Of a stretch of DNA of 64,000 nucleotides, positions 808 through 44,032 are shown one piece after another; position 1 is the first letter of the stretch; every line of letters begins with the position of its first letter. The translations under genes and the position numbers were made by a program. The DNA lies in the NCBI GenBank assembly GCA_963849325.1, contig CAWKHF010000012.1, positions 1,376,001 to 1,440,000 of the forward strand, written 5' to 3'. The DNA comes from an uncultured Planctomycetota bacterium. GTDB lineage: Bacteria > Planctomycetota > Planctomycetia > Gemmatales > Gemmataceae. Under the pieces are notes generated by a model. That model searched no databases, was not told the DNA's origin, and saw only the letters and a program-made list of their open reading frames with translations.

Positions 808-2088
808 CTACTCTGTCTCTACCAGCAGCGCCGCGCCTTGTCCGCCGCCGACGCACAACGTCGCCAGACCGCGACGAAGGTTGCGCCGCCGCAGTTCCTT
901 GAGCAGCGTCAGCACCAGCCGCGTACCCGTCGCGCCGACCGGATGCCCCAGAGCGATCGCCCCGCCGTTGACGTTTAGCCGGCTGCGGTCGATTTCACCC
1001 AGCGCCGAATCGCGGCCCAGGTGTTCGCGGGCAAACTGCGCCGAGGCGAAGGCTTTTTCGTTGCCCAGCACCACGGCGGCGAACGCCTCGTTCATCTCGA
1101 TGAGATCGATGTCCGTCAGCTTGAGGCCGGTCTTTTGCAGCAGCTTGTTCGTGGCGAACACCGGTCCGAGTCCCATCCGCGACGGATCGCAGCCGGCGTA
1201 GGCGTAGGCACGCAGATAGCCCAGCGGCCGCCGACCGTCGGCGCGGGCCGCCTCGCCGGGCATGACCACCATCGCCGCGGCGCCGTCGGTGATCGAGCAG
1301 GAGTTGCCGACCGTCACCGTGCCGTTCTTCTGGAAGAACGGCTTGAGACGAGCCAGCGCCTCCAGCGTCTGTTCCTTGCGCGGGCCGACGTCCTCGGCGA
1401 CGGTACGGCCGGCCGCTTCGGCCGGCACCGGCGTGATTTCCTCGGCAAGCACGCCGCGCTTCTGAGCGTCGGTGGCGCGGCGATGGCTCTCCAGCGCGAA
1501 GGCGTCCTGCTCCTGTCGAGTCAGGCCGAAATCGCGGACGAGCAACTCCGCCGTATCGCCCATGATGAGGCCGCATACCGGGTCGGTCAGGCCGAACTGC
1601 ACGCCGACGACCGGCTTGAAGTGCCGCGGCCGGAAGCGCAGCAGCGCGGCCAGCCGCTGCCGCCAGTTCTTCGCCTTGCCCAGTCGCAAATACAGCTCCG
1701 TCGCCTCGCGGTTGTAGAGTAAGGGGATGCGGCTCATCGATTCGACGCCGCCGGCGACGACGGTGCGGGCCTCGCCGAGTTGGATGAGCTGGGCGGCCGT
1801 GGTGATCGCTTCCATGCCGGAGGCGCAGTTGCGCTGGACGCTGTGGGCGATGCGATCGCGCGGAATGCCGGACAACAGGGCGATGACGCGCGCGATGTTG
1901 GCCGCGTCCGGCGGCATGGCGACGTTGCCGAAGACGACTTGATCGACCTGGTCGGGCCGCAGGCCGGCGCGCTGGAGCACGGCCGTGGTGGCGATGCGGC
2001 CAAGCTCCTGGGCGGACACCGAAGCCAGTGGGCCATAAGCCTTGGCGAAGGGCGTGCGGATTCCTTCGAGAATGGCGATGTCGAGCAT
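808..2088 (-). CDS. Acetyl-CoA C-acyltransferase (thiolase, FadA/FadI-like)
   Basis: Motifs NCASG, NEAF, GHPVGATG, LCVGGGQG; AGGAGG upstream. Confidence 0.95.
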   Translation of the reverse strand: MLDIAILEGIRTPFAKAYGPLASVSAQELGRIATTAVLQRAGLRPDQVDQVVFGNVAMPPDAANIARVIALLSGIPRDRIAHSVQRNCASGMEAITTAAQLIQLGEARTVVAGGVESMSRIPLLYNREATELYLRLGKAKNWRQRLAALLRFRPRHFKPVVGVQFGLTDPVCGLIMGDTAELLVRDFGLTRQEQDAFALESHRRATDAQKRGVLAEEITPVPAEAAGRTVAEDVGPRKEQTLEALARLKPFFQKNGTVTVGNSCSITDGAAAMVVMPGEAARADGRRPLGYLRAYAYAGCDPSRMGLGPVFATNKLLQKTGLKLTDIDLIEMNEAFAAVVLGNEKAFASAQFAREHLGRDSALGEIDRSRLNVNGGAIALGHPVGATGTRLVLTLLKELRRRNLRRGLATLCVGGGQGAALLVETE

Positions 2089-2154
2089 GAGGACGCCTCC
2101 TTGGAGTTGTTTTCGACGAGATGGGCGGGTCGGTCAAGAGGGGGTAGCGAGTCC

Positions 2155-2213
2155 ACAAGCCCGGAGCGTTAGCGACGGGTTATCCAAACCCGTCGCTAAC
2201 GCTCCGGGCTTGT
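2155..2213. repeat. REP-like palindrome, family A
   Basis: ACAAGCCCGGAGCGTTAGCGACGGGTT-loop-AACCCGTCGCTAACGCTCCGGGCTTGT; related copy at 29271. Confidence 0.9.
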
Positions 2214-2231
2214 AGGTGGAGAGCTACCTGC

Positions 2232-3974
2232 TCACGCCGTCGTGTGGCCGTTACCGTTGACCGAGGGCGGCGACTCGCGCAGCTTGCGGCGCAGCACCTT
2301 GCCGAGGAAGTTCTTGGGCAACTCGCTGACCACCTCGATCTTGCCGCGGCCGTTTCTGCTTGCCCAGGTGCAGCTTGCAGTGGTCTTCCAGGGCGGCCAG
2401 GTCCAGCTTGCCGCCGCCGCGCGGCACGACCAGCGCCTTGACCAACTCGCCGCGATCGTGGTCCGGCACGCCGACCACCGCCGCCTCGGCCACGTCCGGG
2501 ATAGCCGCGCAGCACCTCTTCCACCTCCGCCGGGAACACCAGGAAGCCCGACGTTTTGATAATGTCCCTTTTGCGATCCACGAAGGTGTAATAACCTTCG
2601 CCGTCGCGGCGGGCCATGTCGCCGGTGAACAGCCAGCCGTCCTTGAGCACCGCCTCCGTGGCGCAGCGGGTTGTTGAAATAGCCCTTCATCATCTGCGGG
2701 CCGCGCACCACCAGTTCGCCGACCTGCGCCGTCGGCCACGCTCGGCGCCCGTCTCGGGATCGACCAGGCGCGCCTCCGTGTCCGGCAGCGGCAGGCCGAT
2801 GGTGCCCGGACGGTTGGCCGTCGCCGGACGGGTTGGCGTGCGTCACCGGGCTGGCCTCGGTCAGGCCGTAGCCCTCGACGATGGCGCCGACGCCGTGCTT
2901 CTCGAACTCCGTGCGCACGCCCGGCTCCAGGGCCGAGGCGCCGGAGATGACGAAGCGGATGAACGACAGGTCGTGTGGCTCGTCGCGCATGAGGTTGTTG
3001 AGGGCGTGCGAGCATGGCCGGCACGGCCGGCACGATCTCCGGCCGCTGCGCTTCCAAGCAGCGACAGCACCGCCCGCGTCTCGAAGCGCGGGTGCAGGTG
3101 CAGCGTGTCGCCCTTGGCCCAGCTGGTCAAGAGCGACACCGTCAGGCCGTAGGCGTGGAAGAACGGCAGCACGCCGAGCAGGCTCTCGGTGCCGTCGTCG
3201 CCGCCGCACCAGTTGCGCAGCTGCAAGGCGTTGGCCACCAGGTTGCGATGCGTCAGCATGACCGCCTTGGGCGACGACGTCGTGCCGCCGGTCGGGGCCA
3301 GCACGGCCACGTCTTCCTCGGGCGTCACGGCGACCGCCCGCTCCAGCGGCTCCGCTTGCAGCAGGTCCTCGAAGCGATGGCGGCGGGCGTCGTGCGGCAG
3401 GCGCAGGTAGCCGCTGCGGCGCAGGCGCTCGATGCGATAGAGCATGCCGCGCCACATGGCCATGCGGCGGGCCAGCGAGGTCAGGACGACGTGTTCCAGC
3501 GGGCCGCGCTCCAGCGCGCCCGATCACGGCCGGGGCCAGCAAATCGAGGGTGACGACGATGTGACAGCCGGTCGCCTCCAGCCAGTGGCCGACCTCCTCG
3601 GCGACCATGAGCGGGCTGAGCTGCAGGGCCGTCGCGCCGGTCAGCCAGATGGCTTGCAGGGCGATCAGGTACTCGGGGATGTTCGGCAGCAGCACGCCCG
3701 ACGTGCCGGCCCGGCCGGCGCCCGAGGTCGGCCAGGGCGCGGGCCAGCCGCCGCGCCTGCTCGTCGAGTTGGGCGAAGGTCGTGGCCCGGCCGTACAGCG
3801 TGCAGGCCGGCCGCTCCGGGATGCGCCGCGCCGCCCGCTCCAGCAGGGCGCTCAGCGGCACACGCGGGTAAGGCACGGACGACGGCATGTCACAGGGGTA
3901 TTCGTCCAGCCAGGACTGCTGCCAGGATGGGACCGACAACTCCGGGGATCGCAGTTCGGCGACAGGGGCGTCAC
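2232..3974 (-). CDS. fadD: Long-chain fatty-acid--CoA ligase (several frameshifts; start approximate)
   Basis: Fragments carry [35 protein letters not shown] and [12 protein letters not shown]. Confidence 0.8.
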
Positions 3975-4333: not shown

Positions 4334-5227
4334 ATGCCGACTCTGCTGCAAAGCGACGTGCCCGGCTACCCCTGCCGCCGCGGCAAGGTCCGCGACGTCT
4401 ACGACCTCGGCGACCGGCTCGTCATCGTCGCCACCGATCGCATCAGCGCCTTCGACTGGGTGCTGCCGACCGCCATCCCCGACAAGGGCCGCGTTCTGAC
4501 CGCCCTGACGCTGTTCTGGCTCGATCCTCTCGGCGTGCCGCATCATCTGCTGAGCACGGACCTGGCGGACATGCGGCCGGCCTTCGCCGACCGCGCCGAG
4601 GAACTGCGAGGCCGCACTTGCCTGGTGCGCAAGGCGTCGGTGGTGCCGATCGAGTGCGTCGTGCGCGGCTACCTGGCCGGCTCCGGTTGGAAGGAGTATC
4701 GCCGGCACGGCACGGTCTGCGGCATCTCCCTGCCGCCGGGTCTCGCTCAGAGTGCTCGCCTGCCCGAGCCGATCTTCACGCCCGCCACCAAGGAAGAGAG
4801 CGGCCACGATCAGAACATCTCCTTCGACGAGATGGCCCGGCGCGTCGGCGGCGAACTGGCCGCGGCAGCTGCGCAGCGCAGCCTCGACGTCTACCGCCGG
4901 GCGGCCGAGCACGCCCGCTGCGCGGCCTGATCCTGGCCGATACCAAGTTCGAGTGGGGCCTGATCGCCGGATGGGCAAATCATTCTGATCGACGAGGTGC
5001 TGACGCCGGACAGCTCGCGCTTCTGGCCGGCGGACCAGTACCGCGAGGGCGTCAGTCCGCCGTCGTTCGACAAGCAATTCGTGCGCGACTGGCTGGAGAC
5101 GACCGGCTGGGACAAGAACAGTCCGCCGCCGGAGTTGCCCGCCGATGTGGTTGCGCGCACCGCCGCCAAGTACCGCGAAGCGTACGAGCGTCTGACCGGC
5201 CGACCGCTGTCGCCAGCGACGGCCTAA
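4334..5227 (+). CDS. purC: SAICAR synthetase (frameshifted near 4920-4975)
   Basis: [62 protein letters not shown]. Confidence 0.95.
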
Positions 5228-5388
5228 GAGATAGCGGACAACACTTCTCTCTCTCCATTCGCGGCCGACGCCGAGGTTGACTACTGGGCCATTCGGTGCG
5301 CTAACCTCGGCCGATGGCGCGGCCTAACCTGAGAAAGCATCTGCGCGTTGCTGCGCTCGCTGGCCCGCTGATGATGGAAGAATAGTTG

Positions 5389-5416
5389 TTGTGGAAACAA
5401 AAGAACCCCGTATAAT
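5389..5416 (+). promoter_or_regulatory. Possible sigma70-type promoter
   Basis: TTGTGG-16nt-TATAAT upstream of AGGAGG (5462) and ATG 5473. Confidence 0.4.
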
Positions 5417-5472
5417 CCTTGAATGTGCCATAATCAGATTACTCAGCACCTGAGGAAGAGCAGGAGGGTGGA

Positions 5473-6516
5473 ATGTCGAGACTTGTTACGGTCCACGGAT
5501 TGGTTGGGAGATGGACAGCCTTCGCGGTAGCGCTGGGGCTATTCAGCGTATCGCTGGCGGCGGTCTTCGGCCAGTCGGACGGCAGTTCTTACGTGCCGGG
5601 TCCGGCACCATTCATCTTACCGATTGAATGGCAATGTCAGGAAGACGTTCCGACTCCGCTGGACCGGACGGACTTCGGACTCAACGAACAGGTAGACTTC
5701 TGGATTGATCCGACTACATGGGTAGATGAAGACTATTCCGTCGATCCGTACGGCAATCTGACGCCGGTATACGATTCTTTAGGACTCGTTATCTGGTCCG
5801 TAACCGGAGCAGGGACAATCTACCCCACGATTGGCTACAGCACCACACTCACCGTTGACGAAGTGACGCAGGACTCTCCCGTGAGCGTTGAGGCTCAGGT
5901 ATGGGATTCGGAAACCCTGGGTCTTGATCCGCCGGTGACGCTCCAGGCAGGAGGTGGCGGAGGGATGATGGGGCAGGTACCCACGGGAATTCAGGGTGTT
6001 GTATGGTATGACGATTTGGGAGTAGGAGCCCCGGGACCGCCTAACAATCAGGTCGGGGCTCGCAGTCGCTTCTGGTATCAGGTGACGCCCGCGTTCGTCA
6101 ACTTCTCCGCCACCCAATTCCAAGAAAATATTCCCGCTATCCCCCTGCCTCCTCCCTATGCTGCCCCTGTCTGGCCAGATGGCACACCTGTTAACATCGG
6201 CGCGAACATCGTGCCGTTCAACGTTGCCAACGTCACGTTCGGGCCACCGAATGCACAAGTGCTGCAGCCCAACATGGTGCGCGACCGGATCGGTACCGGG
6301 CCGTGGCCGGTTGGGCAGTTGGGGGATCCACCTCAAGCATTTAGCTACAGCGTTCCCGTACCCCTGGAGTACTCATCGGCCGGCGCCTGGATCCGTATCG
6401 CTTCGACGAATAGCAAGTGGCATCCGCGGGAATTCCAAGCGAACTTACAAGCGCGCGTTGGCCTCGACCCTGGGTCGGGACCCGTCTGGGGAGGGCTGCA
6501 AGGTCCTTGGCAGTGA
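5473..6516 (+). CDS. Hypothetical secreted protein with two beta-rich domains joined by a poly-Gly linker
   Basis: Strong RBS, hydrophobic N-terminus, acidic V/T/P-rich body, lower GC than flanks. Confidence 0.7.
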   Translation: MSRLVTVHGLVGRWTAFAVALGLFSVSLAAVFGQSDGSSYVPGPAPFILPIEWQCQEDVPTPLDRTDFGLNEQVDFWIDPTTWVDEDYSVDPYGNLTPVYDSLGLVIWSVTGAGTIYPTIGYSTTLTVDEVTQDSPVSVEAQVWDSETLGLDPPVTLQAGGGGGMMGQVPTGIQGVVWYDDLGVGAPGPPNNQVGARSRFWYQVTPAFVNFSATQFQENIPAIPLPPPYAAPVWPDGTPVNIGANIVPFNVANVTFGPPNAQVLQPNMVRDRIGTGPWPVGQLGDPPQAFSYSVPVPLEYSSAGAWIRIASTNSKWHPREFQANLQARVGLDPGSGPVWGGLQGPWQ

Positions 6517-6653
6517 GCGGGAGGATAGCGGAAAGGCTCGTGTCTCTCCCCGTATCCAGAAGTGTTGTGGAGAAGCGTTTGTCTGAGCGTTCCGGGTACA
6601 CTTCACTCTTTTTTTCCCGCAGGAACCTTTGGGATGAGAAAGGCACTCGTCGC

Positions 6654-7559
6654 ATGGCTACTTCCTTGTTACTCGTGGCGAGTTTGTGTTCCGTGATCAC
6701 CCAGAAAGAAGAAACGGAAGGAATGACGCCAGCATTCAAGCAAGATCTGGCTCGCCTGGCCGCGTTACGCCATGGAAGGGACACCCAGCTAAGAAGGGTC
6801 GATCAACTTGGTCAAGAATTGCTCCAAAAATATTCTGGCGGCAGGGAGCAAGGGGCAATCTACTACCAACTGGCGCACATCCACGCCCAAAGCGGTTTAC
6901 GCGAACCCGACCGCGTCATCGCGTATGCCAGCAAGGCGTTGGCTTTCCCTCTGGATCCATCGCAGCGTATGCGAATGTACGTTTACTGGGGAGACGCGGC
7001 CCGGTTGAAACAAGGACGATCACCAACAGCGGCGCAGCGCAAGGAGGTGGCCCTAACCTATCTCCAAGGACTGAAAGAAACGTCCCGCTATCAGCTGCCG
7101 GATACTCCGCCTGAACTACCCGGTGTCTCACCTTACGACGTGGACGGCCCTCCAGCGGTGGTGGAAAAGGCTCGTCAGGAGCATAAGCGGGAGATGGATG
7201 CTCGGAAGGAGGCGGAATTTCAGCGTGAGATGATTCAGCATCGCAAAGTATTGACTCAACAGCTCGTGGATCTGTATTCTCGCAAGCCTTATGCGACGGA
7301 GGAGTTAGAACAACTTGCCCGCCAGATCCTGGGCGATCCAGCGGCCGTGGAGCGGCTGATGAAGGCTTTGCCGCCAGCTGTCGAGAAGGACCGACAAATG
7401 CAGGCAGCCCTCGACGCCAAGAACGCCGCCGCGCGGAAGAAGCCGTTGCCTGCACCAGCCTCCGCCGCTTGGGCCTATTTCTGGCTTTTTATCTCAGGAA
7501 CGCTTGTCGTCCTTGCCATCCTCTCGCTGTTTTATTGGCGACGACGGCAATCGACTTGA
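6654..7559 (+). CDS. Hypothetical exported helical protein with C-terminal TM helix and basic tail
   Basis: Signal-like MATSLLLVASLCSVIT; TPR-like helices; ends PLPAPASAA-WAYFWLFISGTLVVLAILSLFYW-RRRQST. Confidence 0.7.
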   Translation: MATSLLLVASLCSVITQKEETEGMTPAFKQDLARLAALRHGRDTQLRRVDQLGQELLQKYSGGREQGAIYYQLAHIHAQSGLREPDRVIAYASKALAFPLDPSQRMRMYVYWGDAARLKQGRSPTAAQRKEVALTYLQGLKETSRYQLPDTPPELPGVSPYDVDGPPAVVEKARQEHKREMDARKEAEFQREMIQHRKVLTQQLVDLYSRKPYATEELEQLARQILGDPAAVERLMKALPPAVEKDRQMQAALDAKNAAARKKPLPAPASAAWAYFWLFISGTLVVLAILSLFYWRRRQST

Positions 7560-39767: not shown

Positions 39768-41387
39768 TCAGTAGTTGAACCGAAATTCCGCGCTGGTCAA
39801 CAGCGCCCACACGATTTGTCGCTGCGCCTCGCTCAGCCGGTCGCCGCGCTGGCGGAGGTAATCGCCCAGCAGCTTGCGCTCGTCCGCGCGTGGCGGACGG
39901 CACAGGGTCGTGGACACGGCCAAGTCAATCGCCTCGTCTGGGTTTTGGAGTTGTTTCATCCGGCCGAGTAGGCGGTCGCCGCCGTCGGCCAGCAGCTCCT
40001 TCTGGATGCGATCATTGTTGCTGAACAGCAGCGCCTCGCCGACGCCGACCTGGAAATCGTCGCCGGGCTGCTCGAACAGAGGGGCGATTCCGCCGGCACT
40101 GGACTCCAGTCCTTGCAGCCGTTTGTCGAACTCCTCGGGCTTGAGCGTCGCCGGCAGGGTCCGCGGGTCGGTGACGGCCAGGCGCAGCGACGTGGCAAGC
40201 TGCGTCGGCGTCAGCGGCCGGACGCGGGCCACGGCGAACAGCGCCGGCCGAGGAGCATCGCCCTTGTCCCACCGGCTGTCGCGCGCATAGGCGCGGCTGA
40301 GCACGAGGCCGCGGATCAGACGCCGCGGGTCGTAGCCGTGTTCGATGGTGTCGCGGGCCAGCCAGTCGAGCAGCTCGGGATGGCTCGGCGGGTTCTCCGA
40401 GTGCATCTGATCGAGCGGCATGACCAGCCCGTAGCCGAACAGCCGGTGCCAGACGCGGTTAACGAGGGAGCGAGCAAAGAAATCGCGCTGGCCCGGCTCC
40501 AGCGACAGGCGGACGAGCTGAGCGCGGGCGCTGAACTTCGGCGGTGGCGGCGGCGGCGTATTCGCATCCGCACTGTTCTTGCGTTTCTTTTTCGGCTTCG
40601 GCTCGCCGCCGGGCGGTTCCTTCAAGGTATCCGTCTCGATCGCCTTGCCGGTCAGGAACATCATGCGGGCCTGACGCTCGACGCCCTTGGTCGTCTTGAA
40701 CTTGACGATGCCGAACTCGCGCTCGGCCAGGTGTCCGCCGCTCTCGTAGGTACGGCTGAGGAACGATTTCATTCCGAAGAAATGGTCCTGTTTCCAGTCG
40801 TTGACCAGGGGATGATCGTGACAGCGGGCGCAGCTCATGTTGACGCCGAAGAACAGCGAGCTGACCTCCGCCGTCATCTTGTCGAGATCGCGGACGCGCT
40901 GGCGAAGAAATTCGCCGGCCGATTTCCCCTTGGCGTCGTTCTCGTCGGGCAGCATCAGATCGCGGTAGATGCGGTCCCACGGCCGCTTCTCCGCCAGGGC
41001 GGTCAGCAGGTAGTCGCGCACGCTGCCCTTGGTCCCATTCATAAGCATGACGTCGAACGCCGTGGCCTGGTGCCGCACGAAGGCGGGCGAGTCCATCAAG
41101 CGCTCGACCAACTCGACGCGCTTGTCGGGCTTCATCGAGGCGACGAACATCCGCGTCTCGTCCACGGTGGGGATGCGGCCGGCAAGGTCGAGCGTCAGCC
41201 GGCGGATGAAGGTGGCGTCATCGGTTGGGCCGGCCGGCGCGATGCCTTCTTCCTGGAGGCGGACGTCGAGGTAATGATCGACAACTTGCTCGACGGGCTG
41301 TCCGGGCGGCAGCAGGTCGTCGGCCGCGACGGGAGACGCCATCGGAATCAGGGCGAGAAGCGGGAGAATCAGACGGAGGGTCCGCAT
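39768..41387 (-). CDS. DUF1549/DUF1553 (PSD1) protein
   Basis: RRLTLDLAGRIPT, CARCHDHP, NPPSHPELLD, EFRFNY. Confidence 0.92.
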   Translation of the reverse strand: MRTLRLILPLLALIPMASPVAADDLLPPGQPVEQVVDHYLDVRLQEEGIAPAGPTDDATFIRRLTLDLAGRIPTVDETRMFVASMKPDKRVELVERLMDSPAFVRHQATAFDVMLMNGTKGSVRDYLLTALAEKRPWDRIYRDLMLPDENDAKGKSAGEFLRQRVRDLDKMTAEVSSLFFGVNMSCARCHDHPLVNDWKQDHFFGMKSFLSRTYESGGHLAEREFGIVKFKTTKGVERQARMMFLTGKAIETDTLKEPPGGEPKPKKKRKNSADANTPPPPPPKFSARAQLVRLSLEPGQRDFFARSLVNRVWHRLFGYGLVMPLDQMHSENPPSHPELLDWLARDTIEHGYDPRRLIRGLVLSRAYARDSRWDKGDAPRPALFAVARVRPLTPTQLATSLRLAVTDPRTLPATLKPEEFDKRLQGLESSAGGIAPLFEQPGDDFQVGVGEALLFSNNDRIQKELLADGGDRLLGRMKQLQNPDEAIDLAVSTTLCRPPRADERKLLGDYLRQRGDRLSEAQRQIVWALLTSAEFRFNY

Positions 41388-41563
41388 CACGGGTTCCTTG
41401 CTTCTGGATCGTCGGTACTCAGGCCGGTCGCGCGGACGGCCGGCGTGAATCTCTCGGGGCGGGAGGGTGGTCCCTGGTAGGCCGAGAAGGCGGGTTCCCA
41501 AACTGTCCTTATTGTGCGGCGCGGGCGGCCGACTTGCAAGTGTCTTCTGGCCGATTGTCCGCG

Positions 41564-42094
41564 ATGAGTGCCCTGGCCGACATCGACGATGTTTGTGTCC
41601 GCCGCCGCGTCGAGGCCGACCTGTCGCCCTTGGAGCCGCTGGACAGCACGATCCGCCGACTGGAGAAAGACATCGAGGTCGCCGCCCGCCCGCATTACTC
41701 GACTGAGATGGCCGTGCTGCAATCGACGCCCGGCGTCGGCATCGTCATCGCCCTGACCATCCTCCTGGAGATCGACACCCTGGAACGCTTCGACACACGC
41801 CAGCAGTTTTGCTCCTATGCTCGGCTTTGCGGCGCACGCCAAGAGTCGGGCGGCAAGACGGTCGGCAGCGGCAACGCCAAGCAGGGCAATGCCTGGCTAA
41901 AATGGGCCTTCTCCGAGGCCGCCGTACTCAGCGCCCAGAAGAATGAGCGGATCGCCAAGTATCTCGACAAGCTGTCGGGTCGTCTGGGCAAAGCCAAAGC
42001 CTTGTCGGCCTTGGCCCACAAGCTCGGACGCGCCTTCTACCACATGCTCCACAAAAAAGAGGTATTTAATATCGACAAATTCCTGAGACACTGA
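41564..42094 (+). pseudogene. IS110/IS1111-family transposase, C-terminal part only (DEDD RuvC-like domain missing)
   Basis: LQSTPGVGIVIALTILLEI, RF...QQFCSYARL, QESGG, GNAWLKWAFSEAA, ALAHKLGR. Confidence 0.88.
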
Positions 42095-42720
42095 GCCACG
42101 GGGCGGCCGGCGAGCCGAAGCCGAACGGGAGCCGCTACGGGCCAACCCGCACGACGACCCTAACCAGCAAGGGAGCATCGACTCCGCCATTGGGGTCCGG
42201 GACCGCCCAGGCATCCTGCCGCCTTGATGGGACGCCGGCCGCCGCCGTAAATTTCGACCGCGGTGGTATCAAAAATAGGCCGCGATCCGCCGGTGGGTCG
42301 GGGGACAAAACGGGATCAGCGTAACGCTGTCCCCATGAAAAAGGGCTTGGCCAGTGACCATCCCACGTCCTGCCGACCCCCGCCGGATCGCGGCCACCAC
42401 GAACAAAGGAGCCTTCGCCCGGACGATCCGCCCCAGACGCCAGCCGAACCTAACGGGACACTCCCTTCGGGGAGTGAGCCAGTCGCTTTTTGAATGGCGG
42501 CGACGCTGGGAACGCATGAGTATCGGGACCGACCAGGGCTAGTTCCCTGGCACAGCCGCCTGGTCCTTCGGGTCTGGGCCGCCGGAGTCCGCATGACGGT
42601 TGGGTGCGGTTCGCCGCACCAGCCGTTGATAAGCAAGCCGGATCGCCGAGGAGGATTGCTCGCCGCCGCAGCTACACTCGTTCGGAAATCCGGCAAGAAA
42701 ACTGCCGTGGATAGCCGTTC
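42095..42720 (+). ncRNA. Putative bridge/seek RNA region
   Basis: Several long stems, TTCG-capped hairpins, two related internal-loop modules, and ATGACGGTT identical to the element end. Confidence 0.6.
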
Positions 42721-42818
42721 CCGTGGAAAATATTTTCTATTGACACCAAGAGCCTTATGACGGTTAGGGCGGCCGGGCAGGTGCCAGTCTATCCCATTCC
42801 GATTAGCGGAGATCGGGC

Positions 42819-42846
42819 TTGACGGCAACTAGCGGCCTGATATACT
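42819..42846 (+). promoter_or_regulatory. Sigma70-like promoter inside the cassette
   Basis: TTGACG-16nt-TATACT. Confidence 0.55.
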
Positions 42847-42901
42847 CAATTGACAGGAGTAATCATAATAAAAGAGCAACCACGATTTTGAGGATTTAGC
42901 C

Positions 42902-43510
42902 ATGAGTCAAGCGAATCTGAATCGCCTCCGGGATGATCTTGAGATAATGAAGCAAGCGGCCGGTGTGGACCTGCCGTTCGGACGCGAAGATGTCCGTGCC
43001 TCTCTCTGGTGCGCGCTCTGCGGCGTATTGGTTTCTACCTGGGCCTTGCTGGGGCCTTGGGAGTACCGGTGGATAGTGGCTATTCCCCTGACGCTCGCCG
43101 TCCTCGGCGGGGTCCAGGCATACCGACGAGCACACCGCGAGCGCGGAGGGGAGCCAGTCCGCTGGCGCGAGCATCGGCTTTCGGGAACTGCTGCACTGGT
43201 CGCAGTGCCGCTCGCGATTGCCTACATGCAATGGGAGCGACAAGTCGGCGTGCCGCGGCAGTTTGTCGGGGTGGCCTCGGTGTTCTTTGTGGGCGTGGGC
43301 CTCCTCATCTTCGCGGTACTGGATCGGCGTCGGCGTCCCTATGCGGGAGGAGCAATCCCCTTAATGGCATTTGCCGTCGCTATCCCGCTCTGCTCCCCGA
43401 CTCAAGTGGTGTTCGCGGCCGGGCTATGCTGGACGGTTGGTGGAAGTGCAACCGCGGGGCTACAGTCTTGGCAACTACGCAGAGGCTCAAACAATCATGA
43501 CGCCAATTGA
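42902..43510 (+). CDS. Hypothetical multi-TM membrane protein
   Basis: About six hydrophobic segments; GAGG RBS; overlaps the downstream regulator. Confidence 0.75.
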   Translation: MSQANLNRLRDDLEIMKQAAGVDLPFGREDVRASLWCALCGVLVSTWALLGPWEYRWIVAIPLTLAVLGGVQAYRRAHRERGGEPVRWREHRLSGTAALVAVPLAIAYMQWERQVGVPRQFVGVASVFFVGVGLLIFAVLDRRRRPYAGGAIPLMAFAVAIPLCSPTQVVFAAGLCWTVGGSATAGLQSWQLRRGSNNHDAN

Positions 43511-43808
43511 TTTCAACGGCTTGGACACGGCCGTTCACGGACCGGTTCGGTTGGGCATCCTAACCGCCTTGCACTTGGACGGTTCCCTCGACTTCACGAC
43601 GCTTAAGAAACGACTCAACGTCGCGGACGGGGCATTGGGATTGCATTTGGCCAAACTTGAGGAGATCGGTTACGTCATCTGTAGCAAGGCTTTCGTCGGG
43701 CGCCGTCCGCGGAGCACATATCGCCTTACCCCGCGTGGACGAAAGGCCTTCGCGGCTTACCTAGACGCCATGCAGCGACTGATTGACGCGGTGAATCGAC
43801 AGCCCTAA
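43497..43808 (+). CDS. Small winged-helix transcriptional regulator (HTH_34/MarR-like)
   Basis: LDTAVHGPVRLGIL, DGALGLHLAKLEEIGY, K.FVGRRPRSTYRLTPRGR.AF..Y. Confidence 0.9.
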   Translation: MTPIDFNGLDTAVHGPVRLGILTALHLDGSLDFTTLKKRLNVADGALGLHLAKLEEIGYVICSKAFVGRRPRSTYRLTPRGRKAFAAYLDAMQRLIDAVNRQP

Positions 43809-43996
43809 CAACTGATTAGATCGCGCACGTGCGCGATCTAGCACGGCCGCTGCGCGACCTAACACGGGCCTGCGCGATCTAGCACGGCTGTTGCGCGACC
43901 TAGCACGGGCCTGCGCGATCTAGCAAGAGGCTGCGCAATCTAGCAAGAGGCTGCGCGACCTAGCAACGCTCTCCTTATCTATCAGCAATGTTGCGC
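43802..43996. other. attC-like recombination site, unusually long
   Basis: R'' GCCCTAAC, then CTGATTAGAT pairing with ATCTATCAG with one extrahelical base, then R'-like GTTGCGC. Confidence 0.5.
43817..43966. repeat. 24-bp perfect palindrome followed by seven tandem 20-21-bp units
   Basis: TAGATCGCGCACGTGCGCGATCTA; units TGCGC(G/A)A(T/C)CTA(G/A)CA+6-7 nt at 43830, 43851, 43871, 43892, 43912, 43932, 43952. Confidence 0.9.
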
Positions 43997-44032
43997 AACA
44001 GTCAAGAAAAAAACTCCCCTTTGAGACTTTTC

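What the first reader, a model, noticed from the sequence alone, without database searches (positions are those of the whole stretch)
42095..42764. IS110/IS1111 right-end RNA with two tandem target-loop-like modules carrying different attC-core guides
Seen in sequence: a ~670-nt non-coding stretch after the transposase holds two related internal-loop modules. Module 1 has closing stem GGCGGCCGGCG (42102-42112)/CGCCGGCCGCC (42233-42243), left loop AGCCGAAGCCGAACGGGA and right loop GCCGCCTTGATGGGA. Module 2 has left loop AGCCGAACCTAACGGGA (42442-42458), a CACTCCC-TTCG-GGGAGTG hairpin and right loop GTCGCTTTTTGAATGG. The variable parts are GCCGAAC (reverse complement GTTCGGC) and ACCTAAC (reverse complement GTTAGGT). 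Both resemble integron GTT core sites, and CCTAAC matches the actual flank GTTAGG at 42763. Established: IS110/IS1111 elements use bridge/seek RNAs whose loops pair with target and donor, and some IS1111 elements target attC sites. Inference: this is a multi-guide bridge RNA that lets one recombinase address two attC variants. The guide matches are only 6-7 nt, so chance is not excluded.
Basis: partly seen in the sequence, partly recalled or inferred. Interest (0 to 1): 0.85.

Follow-up and report, generated by a model that had tools for sequence, protein, structure and literature searches.

The report
Three-loop bridge RNA in IS remnant
This is the right-hand remnant of a jumping gene that aims at integron recombination sites, and its guide RNA region carries one loop for its own ends plus two target-type loops instead of the usual one, although only the first of these clearly fits the sites where relatives have landed.

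Summary
The two modules lie at the stated coordinates. Their shared 17-18-nt motif occurs twice in 64 kb and in 0 of 100 shuffles. Both modules are present in all 7 Planctomycete homologues and in 9 distant relatives.

The window copy is a fossil. Only transposase residues ~175-349 and the 670-nt right end remain (41567-42763).

Intact relatives insert at GG|TT of the R' core of attC-like repeats in cassette arrays. Both track their own ends across lineages.

The RNA region therefore has three loops:
- M1, a separate stem-loop just after the stop codon.
- M2, a branch of a covariation-supported multiloop.
- The donor arms, which lie in the same multiloop as M2.

M1 fits both halves of occupied sites (mean 8.8 of 13 variable positions). 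M2 fits poorly (5.0 of 13), and its left-target arm matches no observed site.

The window's CCTAAC/GTTAGG match discriminates between the loops by one nucleotide. That position is mismatched for both loops in L003 and L005, and L006's flank is not of this form.

A dual-guide bridge RNA is plausible but unproven. I rate it a new variant of a known kind.

The parts
41567..42094 (+). 3' part of an IS110/IS1111-family transposase gene (about residues 175-349 of 349). The N-terminal DEDD half and the left end are missing.
   Evidence: Pfam PF02371 only, E 2.1e-18. Of the 120 best full-length relatives listed, 88-93% identical among the top 13, most are 349 aa and 118 carry PF01548+PF02371. Nucleotide homology to intact elements starts at 41567.
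42099..42247 (+). Domain A: M1 stem-loop, the first target-type loop. Closing stem 42099-42112 / 42233-42247, with a long inner stem.
   Evidence: 11-nt perfect inverted repeat. On alignment A4, 93.6% of cells are paired. Covariation score is 0.184 versus 0.099 in shuffles (0 of 500 as high), and slid controls pair at 28-44%.
42113..42130 (+). M1 5' arm. GCCGAAC is complementary to the top strand of the attC R' core (GTTCGGC). It is followed by the constant GGGA.
   Evidence: Against the right flank: L001 6 of 6, L002 6 of 10, L007 8 of 10, L003 7 of 10.
42215..42232 (+). M1 3' arm. It has the same sense as the left target and ends in the core G. It is followed by AT (the first bases of the IS, handshake-like) and GGGA.
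   Evidence: Against the left flank: L007 7 of 10 with a terminal run of 7, L001 7 of 10, L003 6 of 10. The base after the core is A in 8 of 8 sequences.
42278..42395 (+). Domain B: long conserved hairpin between the two modules. Role unknown.
   Evidence: 19-nt arms, 89% complementary (I1). The region aligns across homologues.
42425..42612 (+). Domain C: multiloop closed by 42425-42435 / 42601-42612. It holds M2 and the donor-binding arms.
   Evidence: On alignment A5, 95% of cells are paired. 16 of 51 pairs have changes on both sides, versus 6.3 +/- 1.6 in shuffles (0 of 500) and 0-4 in slid controls. The outer helix has 4 of 10 pairs with double changes.
42437..42503 (+). M2: the second target-type loop. 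Closing stem 42437-41 / 42499-503, 5' arm 42442-58, hairpin 42459-76, 3' arm 42477-97.
   Evidence: It has the same layout as M1: AGCC..., AAC before the stem, and G+A in the 3' arm. The closing helix has 4 of 8 pairs with double changes. Its 3' arm does not match any observed left flank, at 2-5 of 10.
42515..42528 (+). Donor-binding 5' arm. CATGAGTATC is the reverse complement of the left end (core G + ATACTCATG). It is followed by GGGA.
   Evidence: 10 of 10 against the left ends of L001-L006. Each homologue's own arm matches its own left end at 7-9 of 10. L007's arm fits its own divergent left end at 8 of 10 versus 5 of 10 for the others.
42593..42604 (+). Donor-binding 3' arm. ATGACGG has the same sense as the right terminus. 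It is followed by TT (the first flank bases, handshake-like) and GGG.
   Evidence: Direct repeat with 42757-42768 (D13). Three terminus haplotypes are each tracked by the internal arm, at 7-9 of 11 against the element's own end. In distant relatives the arm changes together with the terminus, as read from the sequences.
42740..42745 (+). Outward -35 box TTGACA. It would pair with a -10 in the left end once the element circularises.
   Evidence: Conserved in homologues and in distant relatives. The junction-promoter role is established knowledge for IS1111/ISEc11 (PMC11187229, section 7 read). It was not tested here.
42747..42763 (+). Right subterminal inverted repeat (42747-42759), 2-nt extension, and core GG (42762-63) marking the end of the element.
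   Evidence: The left ends of homologues carry the inverted copy. Homology to L001/L002/L003 ends at 42768, which includes shared flank bases.
42764..42775 (+). Right flank (TTAGGGCGG...). This is the surviving half of the former target.
   Evidence: It diverges from the flanks of the homologues, which read TTCGGC....

Best explanation
The region is the 3' remnant of an IS1111-type insertion sequence whose intact relatives insert, in one orientation, at GG|TT of the R' core of integron attC sites.

Its long right-end non-coding region encodes a bridge/seekRNA-type guide with three recombinase-type loops:
- M1, directly after the stop codon, is the target-binding loop. Its 5' arm pairs with the top strand right of the crossover (the attC R' core). 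Its 3' arm pairs with the bottom strand left of it, plus one or two 'handshake' bases of the element.
- About 300 nt further on, a multiloop carries the donor-binding arms. These pair with the joined right and left ends of the circular intermediate.
- As a branch of that multiloop, M2 is a second loop built like a target loop.

Shown here: the anatomy, its conservation, the attC targets, and donor-arm and helix covariation.

Inferred: that an RNA is made from the circle-junction promoter and bound by the transposase, and that M1 directs insertion.

M2 is most likely a conserved paralogue of M1 that can offer an alternative target specificity to the same donor loop. Its target is unknown, and I put its use as a guide at about 0.4.

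In this window the element has lost its left end and catalytic half, so nothing here can move or be expressed from the junction promoter.
For: Truncation:
- Pfam finds only PF02371.
- Homology to intact 349-aa elements starts at 41567.
- There is no second copy in the window.

Conservation:
- The right end aligns through 42768 in L001, L002 and L003, at 87.0%, 87.5% and 70.4% identity.
- Both modules are present in 7 of 7 loci and in 9 of 9 distant relatives at 42-47% protein identity, from Gammaproteobacteria and Nitrospirota.

Targets:
- In L003 the element sits in one of a set of ~100-nt repeats spaced about 370-810 bp apart. Their ends are inverse cores.
- 5 of 5 intact L003 copies and 2 of 2 intact L007 copies read ...GG TTCGGC at the position where the element is inserted.
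- The bottom strands of two copies fold as bulged hairpins, z -6.6 and -4.9.

Donor arms. They fit their own ends best, with three haplotypes.

Structure.

M1 fit (left + right):
- L007 7 + 8 of 10 + 10.
- L001 7 of 10 + 6 of 6.
- L003 6 + 7.
- Summed over both halves, M1 beats M2 in 5 of 6 loci and ties in L002.

Target-loop hallmarks in M2: AAC at the stem side of the 5' arm, and G+A in the 3' arm in 7 of 7.
Against: - No RNA, promoter activity or protein binding was tested.
- Rfam gives no match at E <= 1.
- M1 shows only weak locus-specific covariation with flanks (own 8.8 versus other 7.7 of 13), because the targets are alike.
- Position R3 of M1 is mismatched in L003 and L005.
- The first core G is mismatched in the M1 3' arm of L001 and L002, and in the donor 3' arm of 5 of 7 sequences.
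- M2 fits flanks near background (5.0 versus 5.15 of 13).
- M2-predicted sites were found nowhere in the held DNA at 13 or more of 16.
- In Salinivibrio (L016), the M2 base that matched the flank in L009 does not match.
- Only 8 close and 9 distant sequences were available.
Confidence: 0.6

Rival explanations
1. Both loops are active guides of one multi-guide bridge RNA. M1 would address GTTCGG-type attC cores and M2 GTTAGG-type cores. The window copy would have been placed by M2.
For: - The window's right flank fits M2 better than M1: 6 of 10 with an initial run of 5, versus 4 of 10 with a run of 2.
- M2 keeps the target-loop hallmarks in all lineages.
- M2's R3 base is G in L001, L002 and L004, where attC cores read GTTCGG.
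- In L009, M2 fits the right flank by one base more than M1.
Against: - The M2-over-M1 advantage in the window rests on one nucleotide, R3.
- That position is mismatched for both loops in L003 and L005. L006's flank (CC...) is not of the TT form at all.
- M2's 3' arm (T-rich in 6 of 7) matches no left flank, at 2-5 of 10.
- M2 shows no own-versus-other excess.
- L016 carries the same M2 as L009 but has a different flank base.
- The window's left flank is lost, so half of the test cannot be made.
Confidence: 0.2
2. M2 is not a guide. It would be a duplicated recombinase-binding loop kept for another reason. It might nucleate or stabilise the donor-loop multiloop, load a further transposase dimer, or act as a decoy or regulator. 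Its arms would drift under structural constraints only.
For: - M2 sits inside the covariation-supported multiloop, next to the donor arms.
- Its arms fit flanks at background level.
- The U-rich 3' arm followed by GAAT/GAAU-like bases recurs in phylogenetically distant relatives with different targets. That pattern looks more like scaffold than guide.
Against: - The bases expected to read the crossover are kept in M2 just as in M1: AAC in the 5' arm, and G followed by A in the 3' arm.
- The positions between them vary between lineages, as guide positions do.
- In L007, the M2 3' arm changed to the local ..TGG form.
Confidence: 0.3
3. The two modules are debris: tandem or nested partial right ends of two elements, or chance GC-rich hairpins.
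For: The right end is unusually long at ~670 nt, against ~270 nt in ISEc11 (PMC11187229, section 7 read). L005 and L013 show small duplications of the right terminus.
Against: - The same order of M1, hairpin, M2, donor arms, -35 and terminus is kept in 7 of 7 close homologues and 9 of 9 distant relatives.
- Helices carry compensatory changes.
- The motif is absent from shuffles.
Confidence: 0.02

Closest known systems
IS621-type bridge RNA (IS110 group; Durrant et al. 2024, PMC11208160; Hiraizumi et al. 2026, PMC13626964)
   Same: - Loops whose two arms pair with opposite strands on either side of a short core.
- A donor loop that reads the joined element ends.
- One or two 'handshake' bases beyond the core.
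- A DEDD transposase with a PF02371 C-terminal domain.
   Different: - Here the RNA region lies 3' of the gene, not 5'.
- The order of the strand matches is reversed.
- The core is G/GG rather than CT.
- The donor arms lie in a multiloop.
- There are two target-type loops instead of one.
IS1111 seekRNAs of ISEc11, ISPa11 and ISKpn4 (Siddiquee et al. 2024, PMC11187229)
   Same: - Non-coding region downstream of tnp, with subterminal inverted repeats.
- The top-strand match lies 5' of the bottom-strand match.
- The guide starts close to the stop codon, as M1 does.
- -35 box at the right end.
   Different: - The sections I read (6-9, 13, 14) report one pair of target matches in RNAs of 82-96 nt, with long forms of 145-172 nt.
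- The ISEc11 non-coding region is ~270 bp. Here it is ~670 nt, with a second target-type loop and identifiable donor arms.
- I could not see their Supplementary Figs 6-7 (folds of the long forms).
IS1111-attC group (ISKpn4, ISPst6, ISPa25; Post & Hall 2009 as cited in PMC11208160; target table in PMC13604230)
   Same: IS1111-type elements that insert orientation-specifically in integron attC sites.
   Different: - Per that table, those elements insert at AA*CG, about 10 nt upstream of GTTAG.
- The present clade inserts at G|TT of the R' core itself.
- Relatedness of the transposases was not tested.
ISPpu9 with its ssr9 module (Pares-Guillen et al. 2025, PMC12288879; abstract and outline seen)
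   Same: An IS110-family element with an extra RNA-gene module downstream of the transposase gene.
   Different: - There the module has its own ends, forms its own circles, occurs alone in the genome, and is not needed for transposition.
- Here neither module was seen alone (and one element per held locus).
- No internal copy of the terminus separates M1 from M2. The only internal terminus copy (42593-42604) lies downstream of both and covaries with the right end, so I read it as a guide arm.

Membership tests
IS110 family, IS1111 group | DEDD transposase with PF01548 (N-terminal) and PF02371 (C-terminal) domains | tested here: inconclusive
   The window copy has PF02371 only. The missing half is present in full-length relatives that are 88-93% identical among the top 13 listed. 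The lineage therefore meets the feature, but this copy does not.
IS110 family, IS1111 group | Subterminal inverted repeats, with the long non-coding region downstream of tnp | tested here: met
   The right repeat is at 42747-42759. The left copy is seen in L001-L007. The non-coding region is 3' of the gene.
IS110 family, IS1111 group | Site- and orientation-specific insertion without a target duplication beyond the shared core | tested here: met
   Homologues are flanked by ...GG on the left and end in GG on the right. 5 of 5 intact L003 repeats and 2 of 2 intact L007 repeats read GG TTCGGC at that place.
Bridge RNA / seekRNA | A loop whose two arms match opposite strands of the target on either side of the crossover | tested here: met
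   Met for M1: L007 left run of 7 plus right run of 7, and L001 7 of 10 plus 6 of 6. For M2 only the right arm resembles targets.
Bridge RNA / seekRNA | Donor-binding arms complementary to the joined element ends and covarying with them | tested here: met
   The 5' arm matches its own left end at 7-9 of 10, and L007's arm is specific for its own end. The 3' arm tracks three terminus haplotypes.
Bridge RNA / seekRNA | Conserved secondary structure with compensatory changes | tested here: met
   Domain C has 16 of 51 pairs with double changes, and 0 of 500 shuffles reach that.
Bridge RNA / seekRNA | The RNA is transcribed, bound by the transposase and required for transposition | not testable with these tools
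   No expression or binding data are available. No Rfam match at E <= 1 in 40000-44000.
IS1111-attC group (ISKpn4-like) | Insertion inside attC at the AA*CG position upstream of the R' core | tested here: not met
   This clade inserts at G|TT of the R' core. The known position is taken from the table in PMC13604230 (passage seen).
Integron attC site (the target, not the element) | Imperfect palindrome with inverse R''/R' cores and unpaired bases, repeated between short cassettes | tested here: met
   In L003 the repeats are spaced about 370-810 bp apart. The bottom strand folds with single unpaired bases, z -6.6 and -4.9. The L008 candidate is weaker: z -2.24, with its end boxes unpaired in the best fold.
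Integron attC site (the target, not the element) | An integron integrase gene next to the array | not tested
   The held loci are 7 kb or shorter. No search for intI was made.
Integron attC site (the target, not the element) | The window copy itself lies in an attC site | tested here: inconclusive
   The left half of the target is lost. No attC-like repeat was found in the window. Neighbouring genes are PSCyt2/PSD1, DUF1501, DHDPS and MR_MLE.

The most novel reading that the evidence does not exclude
A natural multiplexed bridge RNA. One donor-binding multiloop would be served by two independently evolving target-binding loops. A single recombinase could then send the same element to two classes of site. 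M1 would aim at the common attC R' junction. M2 would aim at a second, rarer site with a T-rich left half and a GTT(A/C)GG right half, for instance a particular site of the host integron or a fallback site outside arrays. The layout would be ancient, shared by Planctomycetota, Gammaproteobacteria and Nitrospirota.
Probability: 0.3. Interest if true: 0.8.

Novelty: new variant of a known kind. Interest (0 to 1): 0.6.

Why it matters
Bridge and seek RNAs are described as one RNA with one target loop and one donor loop (review PMC13604230, passages seen). A conserved natural architecture with two target-type loops would show how such elements widen or hedge their target range. It would also give a natural template for multiplexed guide designs.

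Independently, this clade inserts at the very G|TT position used by integron integrases. That makes it a competitor or disruptor of cassette exchange in chromosomal integrons of several phyla.

For this genome the feature is a dead remnant with no likely activity.

Tried and rejected
- **Rfam** scan of 40000-44000 at E <= 1 gave 0 matches.
- **Other copies** in the window: none found.
- **M2 as donor loop:** rejected. Its arms do not match the ends, while other segments do.
- **M2 aimed at the R'' side or the bottom strand of attC:** compared by eye with the copies. No fit.
- **M2 aimed at the right junction for excision:** its 3' arm does not resemble the right terminus (by eye).
- **Scan for M2-predicted sites** in all held DNA: nothing at 13 or more of 16. 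M1-predicted sites hit two intact L003 attC junctions at 13 of 16. In L007, equal scores also fell on non-attC places, so that scan has little power.
- **Several insertions of one identical element**, to sort sites by loop: each query matched 3 plasmid records. Two were full-length, the same element in closely related plasmids. The third was partial, at 73-79% identity.
- **Literature** searches for a second target loop found no such report. The library lacks many subscription papers, and supplements were closed.
- **Single-sequence fold of M2:** not better than shuffles.

Full report
**Observation.**

- The M1 closing stem 42102-42112 / 42233-42243 is an 11-nt perfect inverted repeat.
- The two left loops are at 42113-42130 and 42442-42458.
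- A degenerate form of their shared motif occurs exactly twice in the 64-kb window. It occurred in none of 100 shuffles.

Folding the window sequence alone is only partly convincing:
- Whole stretch: z -3.82.
- M1: z -2.85.
- M2 region: z -0.42, with 70 of 200 shuffles as good.

**What the element is.**

The reading frame ending at 42094 carries only the C-terminal Pfam domain PF02371.

A search for longer relatives gave 790 hits. Of the 120 best listed, most are 349 aa and 118 carry both PF01548 and PF02371. The top 13 are 88-93% identical to the window fragment.

One scan of genome contigs returned 7 loci, L001-L007, all from Gemmataceae or Planctomycetaceae assemblies.

Nucleotide homology to them begins at window position 41567. 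That corresponds to about residue 175 of the transposase. It runs to 42768:

| Locus | Identity | Note |
|---|---|---|
| L001 | 87.0% | |
| L002 | 87.5% | |
| L003 | 70.4% | |
| L004 | 72.3% | up to a contig end |
| L005 | 71.5% | |
| L006 | 72.1% | |
| L007 | 69.6% | over 526 nt only |

The window therefore holds a 5'-truncated copy. The left end and the catalytic half are gone, and there is no second copy in the window. The ~670-nt non-coding right end is a genuine, conserved part of the element.

**Ends.**

- Homologues begin (T/C)GG|ATACTCATGAAGG... and end ...CCTTATG(AC/CG)GG|. The two ends carry subterminal inverted repeats.
- GG is present at both junctions. I treat it as the core.
- In the window the element ends at 42763 and the flank starts at 42764.
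- A TTGACA box at 42740-42745 faces outward. This is as described for the junction promoter of ISEc11 (PMC11187229, section 7 read).

**Targets.**

In L003 the left flank is most of a ~100-nt repeat that recurs on both sides of the element. Together with one further junction found, the spacing is about 370-810 bp.

A pattern for the repeat's inner box found 13 places in the loci and none in the window:
- L003: 6, one of them occupied.
- L007: 3, one of them occupied.
- L002, L004: 1 each, both occupied.
- L006: 2. One is occupied. The other looks like a chance match.

All 5 intact L003 copies and both intact L007 copies read ...GG TTCGGC at the place where the element is inserted.

The repeats start with the inverse of that core (..GCCGAAC..). 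The bottom strands of two L003 copies fold into long hairpins with single unpaired bases (z -6.6 and -4.9, 0 of 200 shuffles each). This is the anatomy of integron attC sites in a cassette array.

I did not look for an integrase gene.

L001 and L005 sit in sites that resemble only the last ~10 nt of such a repeat.

- 42515-42524 is the exact reverse complement of the left end of L001-L006 (10 of 10).
- 42593-42601 repeats the right terminus plus the first two flank bases.

Across homologues these arms follow their own ends:
- The 5' arm fits its own left end at 7-9 of 10.
- L007 has a divergent left end. Its arm fits that end at 8 of 10, but the other left ends only at 5 of 10. The other arms fit L007's left end at 5-7 of 10.
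- The 3' arm tracks three terminus haplotypes, at 7-9 of 11 against the element's own end.
- In distant relatives the same internal segment changes together with the terminus: ATATGTG in gammaproteobacterial elements, ATAAGTG in the Manganitrophus elements (read).

**Anatomy.**

Alignment folding gives two separate domains.

Domain A (M1, 42099-42247):
- A long closing stem, an internal loop and a long inner stem.
- 93.6% of cells paired, covariation score 0.184 versus 0.099 in shuffles (0 of 500), and slid controls at 28-44% paired.

Domain C (42425-42612):
- A multiloop closed by 42425-35 / 42601-12.
- It contains M2 as one branch, two further hairpins, and the donor arms in the joining strands.
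- 95% of cells paired. 16 of 51 pairs have changes on both sides, versus 6.3 +/- 1.6 in shuffles (0 of 500) and 0-4 in slid controls.

Donor-binding bases lying in a multiloop is what Durrant et al. note for many IS1111 elements (PMC11208160, passage seen).

All three loops share a format:
- The 5' arm is a guide followed by (C)GGGA or TGG.
- The 3' arm is a guide ending in the core G, then one or two bases of the partner DNA, then GGG or TGG.

The base after the core is A (the first base of the element) in 8 of 8 M1 arms and 7 of 7 M2 arms. It is TT (TC in L003) in the donor arm. These resemble the handshake guides of IS621 (PMC13626964, abstract and Main read).

**Which loop fits the sites.**

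Ten-nt windows on each side of the crossover:

| Locus | M1 left | M1 right | M2 left | M2 right |
|---|---|---|---|---|
| L001 | 7/10 | 6/6 | 2/10 | 5/6 |
| L002 | 5 | 6 | 4 | 7 |
| L003 | 6 | 7 | 5 | 5 |
| L005 | 6 | 5 | 3 | 6 |
| L006 | 6 | 5 | 2 | 2 |
| L007 | 7 | 8 | 5 | 3 |
| L004 | 5/10 | – | – | – |
| window | – | 4/10 | – | 6/10 |

- In L007 the M1 matches are runs of 7 on each side.
- L004 has a left flank only. The window has a right flank only.
- Summed over both halves, M1 is the better fit in 5 of 6 loci and ties in L002.
- M2's 3' arm never gives more than a 2-nt terminal run.

Counting only variable positions:
- M1 guides match their own flanks at 8.8 of 13 and other loci's flanks at 7.7.
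- M2 matches its own flanks at 5.0 and others at 5.15.

M1 is thus clearly attC-directed, but it shows little locus-specific covariation because the targets are alike. M2 is near background.

Sites predicted from M2 were not found at 13 or more of 16 anywhere in the held DNA.

**A complication for the 'variable' base.**

In M1, the base opposite flank position R3 is predicted to pair with the 3'-arm base at the first core position. The two covary (G-U in 3, C-G in 2, U-G in 1, unpaired in 1 of 7).

R3 is mismatched to the flank for both loops in L003 and L005. L006's flank begins CC and is not of this form.

So R3, the only base that favours M2 over M1 in the window, is a poor witness of guidance.

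**Distant relatives.**

tblastn against plasmids found 181 records, all below 60% identity. I read nine:
- L008-L016: Alteromonas, Vibrio campbellii, Pseudoalteromonas (two), Catenovulum, Salinivibrio, and Candidatus Manganitrophus (two).
- They are 36-47% identical in protein.

All nine have both modules in a 450-530-nt right end. In L011 the right end is cut after M2 by another insertion sequence. All insert at ..TTG|TT(A/C)...

Contiguous match around the crossover, M1 versus M2:

| Locus | M1 | M2 |
|---|---|---|
| L008 | 9 | 9 |
| L009 | 6 | 7 |
| L010 | 5 | 5 |
| L012 | 9 | 9 |
| L013 | 10 | 8 |
| L014 | 7 | 7 |
| L015 | 11 | 7 |

Seven of these positions are constant in this group.

L016 carries the same M2 as L009, but its flank differs at the base that matched in L009.

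The two-module layout is therefore old and widespread. Again, only M1 ever fits clearly better.

**How it most likely works.**

By analogy with IS621 and ISEc11 (established for those elements, inferred here):
- Excision joins the ends and creates a promoter (-35 at 42740).
- The transcript runs through tnp into the right end.
- Transposase dimers bind the loops.
- The donor arms pair with the circle junction.
- M1 pairs with the attC R' junction.
- Strands are exchanged at the core G(G).

M2 has everything a target loop needs at the crossover. It could present a second specificity to the same donor loop, in cis. Split guides are reported to work (review PMC13604230, passage seen). I put this at about 0.4, against about 0.3 for a purely structural or regulatory role.

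In the window none of this can happen. There is no left end, no catalytic domain and no junction promoter.

**Comparison and novelty.**

The element works like an IS1111 seekRNA/bridge-RNA system and meets the sequence-level criteria (see the membership table).

It is not an ISKpn4-type IS1111-attC element, because the insertion position differs.

I found no paper describing two target-type loops. The library is incomplete. The supplementary folds in Siddiquee et al. and the supplementary tables of Durrant et al., which might show such a loop, could not be opened.

**Left open.**
- RNA expression and protein binding.
- M2's target.
- The presence of an integrase near the arrays.
- The left half of the window's former target.

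Noticed in passing
L006:4684-4921: The right end of the L006 element carries an extra ~230-nt insert. It has terminal inverted repeats and is flanked by a 9-bp direct repeat (CCCCCGTGG), so it looks like a miniature inverted-repeat element. This copy's right flank (CC...) also departs from the TT seen elsewhere.
   Followed up: partly
L005:4670-4690; L013:3045-3085: Both show short tandem duplications of the right terminus: 8 nt in L005 and about 22 nt in L013. They may be scars of aberrant recombination at the end.
   Followed up: no
L010 and L015, right junctions (about 3563 and 3056): The same insertion is present in two related Manganitrophus plasmids. The first variable flank base differs (C versus A). 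Only the L015 form matches the M1 arm, with an 11-nt contiguous match.
   Followed up: partly
window 42158-42166: CCCTAACC, in the apical part of the M1 inner stem, is complementary to the junction GGTTAGGG at 42762-42769 (I2). It is not conserved in L001 or L002, so it is probably chance.
   Followed up: partly
window 42840-42855: A 16-nt stretch is 81% identical to the right-end -35 region at 42730-42745 (D1). It lies about 50 nt upstream of the gene starting at 42902. It may simply be that gene's own promoter.
   Followed up: no
L009:568-1584 and 2001-3044: Two different IS110-family transposase genes lie in tandem in the Vibrio campbellii plasmid. The element studied here abuts the right end of the other one, and its left flank contains an attC-like CTTGAAC..ATTG stretch.
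   Followed up: no
L003:1300-2915 and 4750-6900: A cassette-like array of at least seven attC-like repeats with GTTCGGC cores in a Planctomycetaceae assembly. L005, about 47 kb away on the same contig, holds a second copy of the element in a non-repeat site.
   Followed up: partly
window 41391-41566: The truncated element lies in a divergent intergenic region. It is 176 bp upstream of the start of a PSCyt2/PSD1 gene (minus strand) and about 140 bp upstream of a small membrane-protein gene followed by an HTH regulator. What removed the left half of the element is unknown.
   Followed up: no
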